Shown: piece by piece, positions 3,511-41,999 of the stretch
How the letters are laid out: each line of letters starts with the position of its first letter
Position numbering within the stretch: position 1 is the stretch's first letter
Assembly (NCBI GenBank): GCA_951406725.2
Contig: OX597818.1
Coordinates: forward strand, 85,808,001 to 85,872,000
DNA: 64,000 nucleotides
Source: Octopus vulgaris
Taxonomy: Eukaryota
Direction: 5' to 3'
Translations under genes and position numbers: made by a program
Notes under the pieces: generated by a model
What the model was told of the DNA's origin: nothing
The model's input: the letters and a program-made list of their open reading frames with translations, nothing else
Database searches by the model: none

Positions 3511-3958
3511 ATATATATATATATATTGATTTTCTCCATGTATTTTTAGTTTAAATATATGATATAATTTATTATTCTAGAGTCAGGCTAAGTGGCAGAG
3601 ACTGTCTGAATTAAAATTAGCCCATAGTAATGAGTGTCAGGGACAAAATTAACTTATGGTAATTCCTTGGGTGATTTAAAAAAAAAAATTTTTTTGCTGG
3701 GTGAAAAGTATATCTTATATATCATCAAAAGTAAGAGCTATAGCTAAGATACTTTTGTAACGTTTGCATCCACCATTATGTTGTGAGTTCAAATTCCGCT
3801 GAGGTTGATTTCACCTTACATCCTTTTGGAAATCAATAAAATGAGTATCAGTGAAGTACTTCCACAAAATTGCTGGGCTTGTGCCAAAATTTGAAACCAA
3901 TATTACATGCTTTAATGCACTAAAAATGTTTTACCCTGAATATATGCCACTGACATTG

Positions 3959-4237
3959 TTTGTTCCTATTTCGAGCCATGCTTGGCTTATAAGGGCCAGT
4001 TTCCTGGTTTCCTTGGCGTATAGGCTCCCCACCTGGACAGGACGCCAGTCTGTTGCAGGTGAGCTGCAAGATGCAGGAGGAAAGAATGAGAAGAAGTTTG
4101 CCATTACCTTCTGCCGGAGCCGTGTGGAGCTTAGGTGTTTTGCTCATAAACACACATATCACCCGGTCTGAGATTCAAGCCCACGATCCCTTGACTGCGA
4201 GTCCACTGCTCTAACCACTAGGCCATATGCCTCCACA
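3959..4237 (-). mobile_element. tRNA-derived SINE (SINE-E) with perfect 12-bp TSD
   Basis: TSD CCACTGACATTG at 3947-3958 and 4238-4249. The - strand head reads GGAGGCATATGGCCTAGTGGTTAGAGC with a B-box-like GGCTTGAATCTC. Confidence 0.85.
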
Positions 4238-4527
4238 CCACTGACATTGGAGTGCATTTAATATGCCCAAGTGCCTTTCATGCCATCAGATACAGTAAAT
4301 CTGAAATTTTGCAAGAGTTACAAAGCATTCTTTGATCGGCTAATGATATGTATGCCAGTGTAGCCACATGTGTCAACATTTTCTTCTCTTCACCCAACAT
4401 TGTTTTGAAAATCCATATCTTTTATTTATGTCATTATATCTTTTCTTTTATCTTTTATTCTGACCAGTCAGCAATACTTTTTTTTATAATTGTTTACTTT
4501 TACATTTTCCAGAACGTTTAATTTCAG

Positions 4528-4625
4528 AAAATTCTCTCTACACCCGTAGCCCATCTTTAGGTCGTACTGTCAATTCTAGTGGTATACCTAATGATGGAGA
4601 AAACAATATACGCAAATATCATTTG
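4528..4625 (+). CDS. PlexA: Plexin-A exon: (E)NSLYTRSPSLGRTVNSSGIPNDGENNIRKYHL; alternative in-frame acceptor at 4513
   Basis: tttcag|AAAAT ... CATTTG|gtgagt; phase 1 to 0. It ends in the conserved (W/Y)HL that precedes VK in the next exon. Confidence 0.85.
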
Positions 4626-5639
4626 GTGAGTAACTCTCATTGCCTTTACTTTTATACTCATGTACAAAACCCCCTTCATTTTGAGCCCCAATCTGATGTA
4701 ACTCTAAAGTAATTTCTCTTCTGTAAATCATTTTCTTCAATGTTTAAGCTCTAACTCTAACAGCATCAGAGCTAAGTATATTCAGTTCCGTACATGTGGA
4801 CTTGCGACACAAGAACTGGGTTAACTCATTTTCTATAAATGAATGGGAAAATTTACCTTTTAATTTTCACTTATTTCAGTCATTGGACTTTGGCCATGCT
4901 GGAGCACTGCCTTGCAGGGTTTAGTAAAAAAAATTATCACAGTACTTAATTGTAAATCTAGTACTTATTCTGTTGGTCTCTTTTGCTGAACCACTAAGTT
5001 ACGGGAATGTAAACTTAACAACACTAGGTGTCAAATGATGGGTATGTGAATAAACACAGACACACACACACACAACCAATTCCACTCATAAGGCTTTAGT
5101 CAGCCAAGCTCTATGTAGAAGATACATGCCTAAGGTGCCACACAGTGGGACTTGAACCCAAGACTACATGCTTAAGAAACAAGGTTCTCAAACCCAAAGC
5201 TCTCATATTTCAGAATTCTCCACAATTCATACGATGTCATACACACATTTTATTTTTACTGGCCAATAGAAAGAGGTTGTAAGAACTGATTTGCATGTAT
5301 TTATTATGTTACCTCACCAGCTAAAATTTAATCAGTACTAGAAAGGTTGACAGGGTTTCACACCTTACAAATGCAATACTTAAAGTTCATACCTTTAACT
5401 TGCAATCTCTTCATGTTCTTGTATTTAACAAAAAGCATGAGGCCCTAATAGCAGTTCAATGAAAACCTGAAAGAAAATTTACTGAAATAACTACCAAAAA
5501 TGTTGCACAACTAAATACAATAATAATGCAGAAAAAAAAAGGCATTGGTGTGTGCAGATAAATTTTATTCCGTATAAATTTTAAAAATCAACTCATAAAT
5601 AAATGAAACCCTCATATCCATCACTGTACACACACACAC

Positions 5640-6240: not shown

Positions 6241-7865
6241 AATATATTGCCATTTCTGTTGTAACAGTGTAGCCTCAGCTTGTTCAGTTAGAGAAAACCC
6301 ATGAAGCAGAGCAATCAAACCAATGAAATGAGAAAGTCACCATTTTCAGATATTTCTATCTTTACTTAATTGAAGTTAATTTCTCATTTAACCCTTTGAT
6401 TGCTCTGTCTATGCTTATTTGTTCACATCGTTTTGAATTAATCATACATTATCTCATTGCTTTGAGATTTCAACGATGTTGTTGTTTATTTTCAGATGAT
6501 ATTTTAGAATAGGTATGAGAGGCTAGATGTGGCCAGTTTGAAGCAGATGGAATATTAGAGCTGGATATTGTCAGTTTGACCGAAATTTAATGGCAGCATT
6601 TAAAAGATTACATAGATCCTTTTATAGTTGAAAACATCATCAGCTACAGAGAGGACTCCCCACCCTCATTAAATGAAAATATTTCAAAGCAGACATTGGT
6701 GTGCAACACAGTCCTCTTGGCTTCTTGGATCCTGTCAAACTATCCAATCCATGCCAGTTAGAAAGATAGAATATAAAGTAATCATTATCCATTCCTGAGT
6801 AGATAAAATAAATATTGATTAAGTACTGGAGTCAATGCAGTCGATTACATCCTTCTTCAAAATATCTGGTCTAGTGCTGTCTTTATGCTCTGAACTCAAA
6901 TTCTACTGAGGTTGACTTTGCGTTGAATCCTTTTGGGAGTCAATGAAATAAGCACCAGTTGAGCACTGGTGTCAGTATAATTGACTAGCTCCCTCCTCCA
7001 AAATTTCAGGCCTTGAGCTTATTGTAGAAAGAATTACTTTTGTAAGCTGGCAGAATTAGTAGAGCATCAGGAACAAAATGTGTCAGCCCATAACATTCTG
7101 AGATCAGATCTCAGCAAGGTTGACTTTTTCATCCTTTTTAGGATCAGTAAAACCAAAATGCTAGTCTGGTATAGGAGTCAGTGATATTGAACAACCCCTA
7201 CCCTTGTGTCTAAATCAAAAACCCAAAACAATAAGGTGACAGAATTCTTAGAATATTGGACAAAATGCCTTCTAGTAGTTCTTCCTCTCTCTTTACATTC
7301 GGAACTCAAATTATACTTATGACAACTTTGCCTTTGATAAAATAAAGTACCAGTCTAGTGTTTCCTATCACCAAGAATATGTTAGAAGAGATTTACCCAA
7401 CGTGTTCCTCAGTAGGAGCAAGCCAAAAATATGTAGTTGCAAAGAGTACTTCTTCACCCTTTAACATTTAAACTAGCATTTTAATCCAGCCTGAATATTT
7501 TGTCTGTTTTATGTTCAAACCAGCCAGGCCCAGCCTCTCACACTTACCCAACAATATCATTCTAAAAGTAAACAATCATCAAAATCTCAAAGTTACATGT
7601 TAATGCATGATTAATTAAAAACATTATGAATAAATAAGAATTAAATTCAACAGAGAAATCTGAATGCTAACAGGTTAAGCACACATCTATGACTGCAATC
7701 ATAGGCTTGTTATATTTGTTAACTTGTTTTCTCTTTTAATGTTAGTGATGCCAACACCAAGGAATACCCAATATTTCTCTTTGGGTAACATGTGTATTTG
7801 TAACTATGATGGTTTTGTTGTTTAAATGCTGGTTTCTATATCCATTCCTCTTTATAAATTCTCAG

Positions 7866-7958: not shown

Positions 7959-8510
7959 GTAGGTTGCTATCATCATTGTTATTGTTATTATTGTGATAAT
8001 TTTTGTAGGCAGCAAGCTGACAGAATCATTAGCATCTTGGGCAAAATGCTAAGCAGCATTTTGTCCATCTTTACATTTTGAGTTCAAATTCCACCAAGGT
8101 TAACTTTACTTTTCATCCTTTCATGGTCAATTAAAATAAGTACCAGTTGAGCACTGGGGTCAATGTAATCAACTAAGCCCCCTACCACAAAAAAATTTCA
8201 GGTCTTGTGTTTATAGTAGAAAGGACTATCACCATATTTCCTGACATCCATATTGACATAGTATAAACATTCAAACATTGTCACTATCTTTTCAAATCCT
8301 GCTGGTCCAGGCACCATGGCCTTCAGTAAATTATCCTATAGAAACCTTGTTTTTTTGTTACCATTTTATTATTATTTAATTCCGCCAGAACTGACTTTGT
8401 CTTTCATCCTTTCAGGTTCAATAAATTAAGTACCAGGGAAACACTGTAGGTCAGTGTGATTGACTAGTCCTCTCCCCACAAATTTCAGGCCTTGTGCCTT
8501 TAGAAAGGAT

Positions 8511-8882
8511 TATTACCTCTGCTTTAGCTAAGGCAGAGGTATTGTTTTCAGTCATGTTTGTTTGTTTGTCCATAGACAAGATATCTCAAGAACAGCTGGA
8601 TGGAAACAGATGAAATTTTCAGGGATGTTTAGTCTCATGACTAGCATAAACTGATTAGATTTTGGGATTAATCTGGTACTGGACAAGGATTCTGGATTAT
8701 TTTTCCGTTTTTTTTTTTTCTTTGTTTTTTTTACTTAACTTTTGGGAGCAGTCGGGGTCATTTTTAGTATTTTCGTTTGTGAGAGCAGTCTAGTTTATTT
8801 CAGATATTCTCGTTTTTAAAAAAATCATCTCTGGCTAATTGTTGAGAAGTTGTTGGTGTTACCTTGGAGGAGGTTTGCACTC
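8511..8882. mobile_element. Helentron-associated (HINE-like) element
   Basis: Starts TTATTACCTCTGC...GCAGAGGTA (hairpin) followed by (GTTT)n, and ends CCTTGGAGGAGGTTTGCACTC, an asymmetric subterminal inverted-repeat layout. Confidence 0.55.
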
Positions 8883-8925
<43 letters not shown>

Positions 8926-9931
8926 CATTATTATTATTATCAGGCAGTAAACTAGAACATTCATTAGCATACCAAACAGAATGCGGCATTTCCTCTGGCT
9001 CCTTACATTCAAATTCCAACACAGTCACCTTTTCCTTTCATCCTCCCAGGGTTGATGAAACAAGTACCAGTTGAGCACTGAGGGCCAGTTTAACTGACTA
9101 GGCCCCCTCCCCTCAAAATTTCAGCGCCTGTAGTAAAAATTATTATTATTCTAAATCTTTATCACTTCTTTCCTTTTATCAAAGGTTTCTAGTTGCCTTT
9201 CTTGAAACCTCTGACTGTTTGATGACTCTTTCAGCTTCTATATCTTTCTTAAATACACATGAATGTGTATGTAATAGTTCAGACTTCTCCCACAAACTAT
9301 TGGTATTATATTCTGATTATAGGTTGAAATGTGTATCTATAATTATAGTTTCCACCTGGTTTTGTTACCAAAATATAGTAGTAAGAGTAAAAAACACAGT
9401 AATTTAGTGAATTTTATTGTGTGACACAGTACAGATGTTGATGTCTGACTATTAATAACGGCAACAGATTCCATAGAGAGAAAGAGGTTACACATTTATT
9501 AAAGGAATACATACAACAAAAACTATGAAATACTGATATATATATGTGTGTATGTGTGTGTATATACACACATACACACACACATATATAAAATCATAAA
9601 TTTATTTGTATACATGGATATATGTAGAGGTATACATTTGCATTATGTGTATGTATGTCTAAGTTTATGTAGTCACTGAATATGTGTACATATATGTATA
9701 TAGTAAGGGTGTGTGGTCTAGCAGTTAGGGTGTTGCACTCACAATTGCAAGATCATGGTTTCCATTCACAGACAAGTAGTGCATTGTGTTTTTGAACAAA
9801 AGGCATCATTTTACATTGCTCTTGTTTACTCAGTTGTGAATGGGTAACCTTGCAATGGACTGATCTTCAATTCAGAAAGAATGTGTTGTTGTGCCCTCAT
9901 AGCCAGCTACAACAGTGCAAGAAAGTGCTTC

Positions 9932-40802: not shown

Positions 40803-40850
<48 letters not shown>

Positions 40851-40853
<3 letters not shown>

Positions 40854-41257
40854 CGCAGGAGTGGCTGTGTGGTAAGTAGCTTGTTTATCAACCACATGGT
40901 TCCGGGTTCAGTCCCACTGCGTGGCACCTTGGGCAAGTGTCTTCTACTATAGCCTCGGGCCGACCAAACCCTTGTGAGTGGATTTGGTAGATGGAAACTG
41001 AAAGAAGCCTGTCGTATATATGTATATATATATATATATATGCGTGTGTGTGTTTGTGTATCTGTGTTTGTCCCCCTAGCATTGCTTGACAACCGATGCT
41101 GGTGTGTTTATGTCCCCGTTATTTAGCGGTTCGGCAAAAGAGACCGATAGAATAAGTACTGGGCTTACAAAAGAATAAGTTCCGGGGTCAAGTTGCTCGA
41201 TTAAAGGTGGTGCTCCAGCATGGCCGCAGTCAAATGACTGAAACAAGTAAAAGAGTA
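40851..41257 (+). mobile_element. Full-length, little-diverged SINE-A
   Basis: Nearly identical to the copies at 50743, 59167 and 61947. Confidence 0.9.
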
Positions 41258-41460: not shown

Positions 41461-41590
41461 CAATCATCCCAGGACTATGATGTTAAGAAATATGTGATTT
41501 GTGGAAATGTGCATAGCAATGCATTAAAATATTTATAAATTCTATCCAAGGATTATTAGAATTATTACTTTATTACTATATATATATAGA

Positions 41591-41794
41591 GAGATGTACT
41601 TGCATAGCAAGTGATTTGATCTGAGATCGTGTGCTGAAACGAAAACAATTGCAGCATGGAAGGTGTTTGTAAGCCATTTAAGAAACACACAAAAGCCGTT
41701 CAATTCACTTCAACATTTAAGTTTAATTTGTCAAAATATTTTCATCGCTTTAAGACCGCGACCTGTTCACTGACAAAAATCCGTGCTGCATCTC
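41591..41794 (-). mobile_element. 204-bp mini-element in (TA)n with short terminal inverted repeat and a hammerhead-like motif
   Basis: Ends GAGATGTA / TGCATCTC (7 of 8 complementary), TA repeats on both sides; motif at 41727-41777. Confidence 0.55.
41727..41777 (-). ncRNA. Atypical type I hammerhead-like motif (G3-C8 swap)
   Basis: UUUGUCA-GUGAACA-G-GUCGC-ggucuuaaa-GCGAU-GAAA-AUAU-UU-UGACAAA: 7-bp stem I, 5-bp stem II, palindromic stem III. Confidence 0.5.
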
Positions 41795-41999
41795 ATATAT
41801 ATACATATATATGTATGTATGTATGTATGTATGTGCAGTGGAACCTTCTTGAACAAATCAGTTTATGAACAATTTTTCAAACATAAAATATCTCCGGTGA
41901 CAATCTGTGTCTCAAGTAATGAACATACAGGCCTGCAACAATCATTGGTGATTGTAAAGTGAGGTTCTATATACATAGAAATAGAAGATATGAGGAGTT

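What the first reader, a model, noticed from the sequence alone, without database searches (positions are those of the whole stretch)
41591..41794. 204-bp TA-flanked mini-element carrying a hammerhead fold with a compensatory G3-C8 core
Seen: the minus strand of 41727-41777 parses as stem I UUUGUCA/UGACAAA, core GUGAACA, one extra G, stem II GUCGC/GCGAU, GAAA, palindromic stem III (AAUAUU) and a UUU triplet. It lies in a non-coding unit with GAGATG/CATCTC ends between TA repeats. Established: C3 and G8 of CUGANGA base-pair in the active hammerhead, so GUGAACA is the compensatory double change; minimal type I hammerheads with palindromic stem III occur in Penelope-like elements and retrozymes, where they are thought to act as dimers. 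Inference: this may be a non-autonomous ribozyme-bearing retroelement family that CUGANGA-based searches would miss.
Basis: partly seen in the sequence, partly recalled or inferred. Interest (0 to 1): 0.75.

Follow-up and report, generated by a model that had tools for sequence, protein, structure and literature searches.

The report
Penelope retrotransposon end with swapped-core hammerhead
This is one of thousands of short copies of the end repeat of a Penelope-like retrotransposon in what is likely an octopus genome, and it carries a predicted self-cutting hammerhead RNA whose core base pair is swapped (G3-C8 instead of C3-G8), a natural form that our literature searches did not turn up and whose cutting is untested.

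Summary
The hammerhead parse is correct and unique in the window. The unit is neither a MITE nor a free-standing element. It is the last 203 nt of the pseudo-LTR of an autonomous Penelope-like element (RT plus C-terminal GIY-YIG, Nematis-like linker) found whole elsewhere in the genome, and includes the first 29 codons of that ORF. About 5,700 copies exist, with two fixed 3' ends, head-to-head inversions and (TA)n targets. The 6-bp 'inverted ends' are coincidence: 59 of 100 listed short copies carry an untemplated G where the parent has C or T, likely a copied RNA cap, and most copies run past CATCTC. G3-C8 dominates the family. At the same position, related elements carry C3-G8 or U3-A8, so the pair covaries. 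Inserted copies show no pile-up at the predicted cut: the templates were uncleaved, and catalysis is untested. U3-A8 and an engineered C3G/G8C rescue are published; natural G3-C8 was not found in five searches, but two key papers were unreadable. Verdict: new variant of a known kind.

The parts
41591..41793 (-). Short copy of the 3' end of a PLE pseudo-LTR (inferred transcription start to tail), 92.6-93.1% identical to the two direct pLTR ends of the full element L165 and 97.5% to the longer copy L008
41794..41794 (-). Extra G absent from the parent (C or T there); likely the reverse-transcribed cap of the template RNA
   Evidence: G in 59 of first 100 listed (hand count), binomial test
41793..41793 (-). 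Inferred transcription start, in an initiator-like TCAGAT context in the parent (Inr consensus recalled)
41771..41777 (-). Hammerhead stem I, 5' strand
41764..41770 (-). Hammerhead core positions 3-9 with G3 (41770) and C8 (41765)
41744..41763 (-). Bulged G, then 5-bp stem II and 9-nt loop; closing pair decayed to G-U in this copy
41734..41743 (-). GAA, palindromic stem III (dimer type) and H17; predicted cut between 41734 and 41733
41727..41733 (-). Hammerhead stem I, 3' strand
41591..41677 (-). First 29 codons of the parent's RT/GIY-YIG ORF; the frame continues into the full protein in L165
41591..41645 (-). PLE 'tail': the optional ~55-60 nt between the two fixed 3' ends; about 5 nt shorter in this copy than in most
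41578..41590 (.). (TA)n target microsatellite on the tail side
41795..41834 (.). (TA)n/(TATG)n microsatellite on the start side; probably host target, though the parent's 3' UTR has similar repeats

Best explanation
The 204 bp are the end of the pseudo-LTR of an autonomous Penelope-like retrotransposon, likely inserted as a full-length cDNA of the short 5' part of the element's capped RNA, and they carry a predicted minimal type I hammerhead whose C3-G8 core pair has been swapped to G3-C8. Shown: the parent is pLTR - ORF (RT, CxxxCxxC linker, GIY-YIG) - pLTR; the unit ends each pLTR and overlaps the ORF start; copies have two fixed 3' ends; 5' ends pile up just before the hammerhead, often with an extra G; the 3-8 pair covaries across related elements. 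Inferred: RNA polymerase II starts at the A at 41793. The element's protein nicks (TA)n DNA and starts reverse transcription inside the RNA at one of two sites about 30 and 90 nt into the ORF, as shown in vitro for the anole PLE. When it uses the 5'-most copy of that site it copies back to the cap and leaves a ~150 or ~210 bp insert, often as a head-to-head pair. Inferred from chemistry and published mutants: the G3-C8 core keeps the active-site pair, so the RNA would cleave slowly, as a dimer through the palindrome or with protein help. The integrated templates were uncleaved, so cleavage is not a step in making these copies.
For: Parent: L165 has direct repeats 3804-4921 and 8081-9182 around an RT/EN ORF plus an inverted truncated copy. 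GIY-YIG PF01541 at 915-1005 of the 1025-aa frame in L162. Copy number: 3,025 exact 24-mer and 5,745 22-mer matches, reversed controls 0, against 554 for the 21-mer just upstream. Ends: in 30 pattern-picked loci, 24 of 51 alignments end at 145-154, 24 at 200 or more, 3 elsewhere; 20 of 30 loci hold both orientations. Cap: 947 matches; of the first 100 listed the base before AGATG is G 59, C 26, T 8, A 7, with no shared sequence further 5' (p about 1e-19 against 18% G). Covariation: a sister family in the same genome (54.7% protein identity) has C3-G8 and two-sided changes in stems I and II. Three of 12 metagenome loci gave a hammerhead after the ORF: two U3-A8, one C3-G8, with a descriptor that did not require 3-8 pairing. 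Alignment A3: 9 of 11 pairs change on both sides, 0 of 500 shuffles reach the score. Literature: tail = two RT start sites, and C3G/G8C partly rescues a PLE hammerhead (PMC11167929); untemplated G attributed to cap copying (PMC3287187).
Against: No cleavage data. No pile-up at the cut: 298 copies lack the GAA but keep the downstream part; of 100 listed, only 2 start exactly at the cut, 3 more are inversions templated by stem I, and neighbouring positions are at least as common (hand count). Copies breaking the pair exist: 324 lack C8, and G8 is over-represented (42 of 100 listed); these are scattered over subfamilies. The sister family and one metagenome locus have C at core position 9, so the core is relaxed in this lineage. 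The modelled catalytic dimer (-22.8 kcal/mol) is no better than two monomers (-23.4) and worse than the co-fold MFE (-29.0). The stems in A3 were required by the descriptor and two of its six rows are the same family, so only the 3-8 column is a free test. Pfam RVT_1 did not hit the parent ORF; RT rests on motifs and homolog labels. The youngest intact ORFs carry a different loop II from the window copy; the ORF-linked copy with the window's loop (L245) is 94% identical to it. The sequence before the start also reads like a branch point and splice acceptor. The sister family showed no such sharp 5' pile-up in 30 loci.
Confidence: 0.82

Rival explanations
1. The short unit has become a SINE-like non-autonomous PLE. 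It holds an internal promoter, the hammerhead and both RT start sites, so short copies are themselves transcribed and re-inserted in trans by the PLE protein.
For: About nine in ten hammerhead copies lack the upstream pLTR (554 vs 5,745). Short copies mostly carry loop-II types other than that of the youngest ORF-bearing copies. L018 is a head-to-tail array of 150-bp units. Penelope has an internal promoter (PMC2377424). Non-autonomous PLE derivatives are described (PMC8557442; bioRxiv 10.64898/2026.07.22.740005).
Against: The window's loop type also occurs in long truncated copies (L008, L146) and an ORF-linked copy (L245). No sign of serial cap addition: GG before AGATG in 3 of 100. Short copies lose the initiator context upstream of the start.
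Confidence: 0.25
2. The fold is a structurally kept but catalytically silent or very slow hammerhead, serving as a protein-binding or translation-control element in the 5' leader rather than as a nuclease.
For: No inserted cut products. Excess G3-G8 copies. C9 in two relatives. In the anole PLE, hammerhead mutants do not affect insertion in vitro and no RNA-seq reads end at the cut (PMC11167929).
Against: The 3-8 pair forms in the active conformation (established; PMC3088659 and PMC8495972), and it is Watson-Crick in all five families examined, in three states. G5, A6, G12-A14 and NUH are intact in the window copy.
Confidence: 0.25
3. The 5' pile-up marks a 3' splice site, not a transcription start: copies come from spliced RNA whose tiny first exon ends in GAG.
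For: The parent sequence just upstream reads like a branch point, pyrimidine tract and YAG. PLE pLTRs often hold an intron that ends near the hammerhead (PMC4209133; PMC2377424).
Against: No shared exon-1 sequence precedes the G in any of the 59 listed copies. No such joint appears in contigs of four runs guessed to be RNA (contigs are weak evidence).
Confidence: 0.08
4. It is a Tc1/mariner-type MITE with 6-bp inverted ends and TA duplications, and the hammerhead is chance.
For: In the window copy alone the ends are complementary over 6 bp and flanked by TA.
Against: Ends are not symmetric across copies. The unit is the pLTR end of an RT element. Chance expectation for the motif is 0.02 per window.
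Confidence: 0.01

Closest known systems
Minimal type I hammerheads in PLE pseudo-LTRs (Cervera and De la Pena 2014, PMC4209133)
   Same: Type I, bulged nucleotide between 9 and 10.1, G10.1-C11.1 in the family majority, short palindromic helix III, location in the pLTR, mostly dispersed single copies.
   Different: G3-C8 core. All representatives in their Fig. S3 text that I saw have C3-G8 or U3-A8. The bulge is G, where their consensus gives H.
Poseidon element of Anolis carolinensis, PAc (Frangieh et al. 2024, PMC11167929)
   Same: Hammerhead at the pLTR-ORF junction, two fixed 3' ends inside the ORF start (tail), AT-rich targets, unprocessed RNA as template.
   Different: There G3-C8 is an engineered rescue; here it is the natural majority state. 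Here the hammerhead lies wholly upstream of the ATG, the tail is about 55-60 nt rather than 30-40, and the protein has a Zn-finger-like linker.
Nematis clade of EN+ PLEs (Craig et al. 2021, PMC8557442)
   Same: RT followed by a short CxxxCxxC linker set close to a C-terminal GIY-YIG, as in the two Nematis rows seen in the supplement; tandem and inverted pLTRs; tail.
   Different: Clade membership was not tested with a tree; the assignment rests on linker spacing only.
Non-LTR retrozymes (PMC7229834; bioRxiv 10.64898/2026.07.22.740005)
   Same: Short, non-coding-looking, type I hammerhead repeats of PLE pLTR origin.
   Different: Retrozymes are head-to-tail arrays processed at the ribozyme into circles. 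Here copies are mostly single or head-to-head, start at an inferred cap, end at RT start sites, and show no boundary at the cut.

Membership tests
EN+ Penelope-like element | Single ORF with RT and GIY-YIG endonuclease | tested here: met
   Frames of 1025, 839 and 777 aa with DKSG and YVDD motifs; PF01541 above cut-off; homologs labelled reverse transcriptase domain. Pfam RVT_1 did not hit.
EN+ Penelope-like element | Pseudo-LTRs in direct and inverted arrangement | tested here: met
   L165 self-comparison; 20 of 30 loci with both orientations
EN+ Penelope-like element | Optional 3' tail extending into the ORF start | tested here: met
   Two 3' ends, 24 and 24 of 51 alignments; frame continuity in L165
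Nematis clade | Reduced CX2-5CxxC linker next to a C-terminal GIY-YIG | tested here: met
   Visual comparison proteins with the Nematis rows; the 781-aa family has the longer spacing
Nematis clade | Placement in the RT tree | not tested
   No reference Nematis proteins were held as usable records
Type I minimal hammerhead | Core CUGANGA and GAAA with a 3-8 Watson-Crick pair | tested here: met
   Literal CUGANGA is not met; the pair is met as G3-C8 and covaries
Type I minimal hammerhead | Stems I and II, palindromic stem III, NUH | tested here: met
Type I minimal hammerhead | Self-cleavage after H17 | not testable with these tools
   No raw reads were available; inserted copies show no boundary at the cut
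Non-LTR retrozyme | Head-to-tail tandem units, each with a hammerhead | tested here: not met
   One array (L018) among the first 60 loci; neighbouring matches are mostly head-to-head
Non-LTR retrozyme | Circular RNA intermediates | not testable with these tools
   Only assembled contigs could be laid
MITE (Tc1/mariner type) | Terminal inverted repeats shared by copies | tested here: not met

The most novel reading that the evidence does not exclude
A natural G3-C8 hammerhead, completing three Watson-Crick states of the active-site pair (C-G, U-A, G-C) within one PLE lineage, sits just downstream of the cap of an RNA whose uncut 5' end has been copied into the genome thousands of times. The short unit is itself a mobile, SINE-like parasite of the PLE, and the ribozyme acts as a self-limiting switch that removes the cap from paired transcripts rather than as a template-processing step.
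Probability: 0.2. Interest if true: 0.65.

Novelty: new variant of a known kind. Interest (0 to 1): 0.42.

Why it matters
It adds a third natural state of the hammerhead's C3-G8 pair, so far seen by us in print only as an engineered rescue, and shows that CUGANGA or U3-A8 descriptors miss whole PLE families (about 5,700 copies here). The copies also record the element's RNA in vivo: an inferred cap site, two RT start sites and an uncut ribozyme. That offers a simple origin for the many solo minimal hammerheads in animal genomes and a natural pair (G3-C8 family and C3-G8 sister) for testing what PLE hammerheads do, which is still open.

Tried and rejected
Rfam: only microsatellite-driven noise, no hammerhead family. 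MITE reading: rejected. First GIY-YIG family search: found other PLE families, not the parent; the parent came through the upstream 21-mer. C3-G8 subfamily inside this family: 0 of the first 100 of 173 non-G3 copies; 4 have A3-U8, compatible with double decay. G3-G8 as an evolutionary intermediate: rejected, such copies are scattered over old and young subtypes (no tree was built). In-vivo cleavage footprint: none. Sequencing runs: held only as contigs; the four laid runs are guessed RNA and cannot show starts, strand or level. Nine of 12 metagenome loci gave no hammerhead, most lacking enough 3' flank. Earlier findings of this scan: none by sequence or words. Literature searches for a natural G3-C8 core: none found. 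The Hammann 2012 review and Lunse et al. (PMC5785218) were not held and may list such a variant; bioRxiv supplements were closed.

Full report
Observation. The MFE holds stems I and II (-13 kcal/mol; 5 of 200 shuffles as good). A relaxed descriptor finds only this site on both strands of the window, against a mean of 0.02 hits in 100 Markov resamples. Rfam has no hammerhead match here. The G-U pair closing stem II is CpG decay of this copy: 139 of 168 aligned copies have C.

Family. The own genome (2.8 Gb) holds 3,025 exact matches to a 24-mer of the motif and 5,745 to a 22-mer allowing C or G at positions 3 and 8; reversed controls give 0. Of the first 100 listed, 98 are G3-C8. The host is likely an octopus: a protein that NCBI labels Octopus vulgaris matches the genome at 100% over 136 residues. 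In 30 loci picked by pattern, 24 of 51 alignments end at unit position 145-154, 24 at 200 or beyond and 3 elsewhere, and 20 of 30 loci hold both orientations. Many flanks are (TA)n. Two fixed 3' ends, head-to-head inversions and microsatellite targets are the described marks of Penelope-like elements (PMC8557442, passages). The supposed inverted ends do not hold: copies continue past CATCTC and the first G is not in the parent.

Parent. Some copies extend further 5'; a 21-mer there has 554 matches, and several such loci have a GIY-YIG ORF end about 1 kb upstream. L165 (G000:C4:22952000-22961900) is a whole element: direct repeats at 3804-4921 and 8081-9182 around an RT/endonuclease ORF, with an inverted truncated copy upstream. 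The 204-bp unit ends each repeat at 92.6-93.1% identity, and the ATG matching window 41677 opens the ORF. The 1025-residue frame of L162 hits PF01541 above cut-off but not RVT_1; it has DKSG and YVDD motifs and 74 homologs. The short linker before the endonuclease resembles the two Nematis rows seen in the supplement of PMC8557442; no tree was made.

The 5' end. About nine in ten copies start just before the hammerhead (554 vs 5,745, a rough ratio of two exact patterns). A pattern that excludes the long form gives 947 matches. Of the first 100 listed, the base before AGATG is G 59, C 26, T 8, A 7 by hand count, and nothing is shared further upstream. The parent has C or T there. Dropping 13 rows whose G may come from the inverted arm leaves 46 of 87 (p about 2e-8 against 25%). 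Untemplated G at full-length insertions is attributed to copying of the cap (PMC3287187, passages). I infer a transcription start at the A matching 41793, in an initiator-like context (consensus recalled). The same spot also reads like a splice acceptor, but no first exon is visible. The sister family did not show such a sharp pile-up in 30 loci.

Mechanism of insertion (inferred). For the anole PLE, reverse transcription starts inside the RNA at two sites in the ORF start, which define the tail, and unprocessed RNA is the main template (PMC11167929, parts 1-2 of 4). Applied here, priming at the 5'-most such site and copying to the cap gives exactly the observed ~150 and ~210 bp inserts. These would be by-products of the autonomous element. 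The window's loop-II type occurs in long truncated copies (L008, L146) and an ORF-linked copy (L245, 94% identical). However, all 11 ORF-linked copies recognised carry another loop type, and short copies mostly do not, so mobilisation in trans from an ORF-less source is not excluded. That sample was biased by the protein query used to fetch it.

Is the ribozyme real? Within the family, positions 3 and 8 show mostly decay: 173 copies lack G3, none of the first 100 listed being C3-G8; 324 lack C8, with G 42, T 41, A 17 of 100 listed. The G3-G8 copies lie in several subtypes, so they are recurrent changes. Across families the pair covaries. A young sister family in the same genome (54.7% protein identity) has C3-G8, the same bulged G and two-sided changes in stems I and II, but C at position 9. 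Of 12 metagenome loci encoding relatives, 3 gave a hammerhead after the ORF, two U3-A8 and one C3-G8, with a descriptor that left positions 3, 8 and 9 free. In the six-row alignment 9 of 11 pairs change on both sides and the 3-8 column reads CG 2, GC 2, UA 2. Two rows are the same family and the stems were demanded by the descriptor, so the free evidence is five of five families Watson-Crick at 3-8, in three states.

Against efficient cleavage. Only 298 copies keep the downstream part without the GAA. Of 100 listed, 2 begin exactly at the cut, 3 are inversions templated by stem I, and positions 61 and 63 have about 4 and 5 (hand count). So cut products were not preferentially inserted. The catalytic dimer is not favoured in ViennaRNA. 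Published minimal PLE hammerheads cleave weakly, as dimers or with protein (PMC4209133, parts 1-2 of 4; PMC11167929). Runs guessed to be RNA contain the unit, but as contigs they show neither start nor cut.

What is known. Natural U3-A8 is reported (PMC3088659, section 8; PMC4209133). The engineered C3G/G8C double mutant partly rescues activity (PMC8495972, passage; PMC11167929). None of the representatives in the Fig. S3 text of PMC4209133 has G3-C8 (supplement parts 1-2 of 3). Five searches for a natural G3-C8 core found none, but Hammann 2012 and Lunse et al. could not be read. A recent repeat annotation of O. vulgaris lists 31 recently active Penelope-like families and does not mention ribozymes (PMC13282606, passages), so the element itself is probably already in a repeat library. 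Also seen as passages only: PMC3884650, PMC7229834, PMC3846280, PMC2377424, PMC6765202; bioRxiv 10.64898/2026.07.22.740005 parts 1-2 of 5.

Verdict. A real, well-supported hammerhead-fold variant in the pseudo-LTR of a known class of retrotransposon. The PLE origin is shown. The cap and RT-start reading is a strong inference. Catalysis is untested and was not needed to make the copies. New variant of a known kind; interest 0.42.

Noticed in passing
L229 (G000:C17:6329000-6338000), hammerhead near 7224: Very young sister PLE family (1312-residue frames with an Asn-rich insert; 1,534 exact matches of a 28-mer) whose hammerhead has C3-G8 but C at position 9; the same C9 occurs in metagenome locus L285. 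A GTAAGT donor-like motif lies just upstream.
   Followed up: partly
L068-L087, L111-L113: Another PLE family with many intact 781-residue RT/GIY-YIG frames, an upstream ORF and a U3-A8 minimal hammerhead.
   Followed up: partly
L079:12-70: A further U3-A8 minimal hammerhead of a different repeat family.
   Followed up: no
L038, L040, L056, L057, L059, L060: These six loci share the same inverted pair and over 1.1 kb of flank at 95-98% identity, so some copies spread as passengers of a larger repeat.
   Followed up: partly
L018:735-1701: Head-to-tail array of ~150-bp units separated by TA runs, the one retrozyme-like arrangement seen.
   Followed up: no
family-wide, core position 8 (window 41765): C-to-G changes at position 8 are as common as C-to-T (42 vs 41 of 100 listed), far more than the mirror G-to-C at position 3 (about 11 of 100); cause unexplained.
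   Followed up: partly
window 40811-41257 and some 20 other places in the window: A common short interspersed repeat next to TA runs, also found beside the PLE ends in L165 and L229.
   Followed up: no
P0069: A database protein labelled dynein regulatory complex subunit 6-like begins with about 150 residues of the sister PLE's RT, likely a gene-model fusion or an exonised fragment.
   Followed up: no
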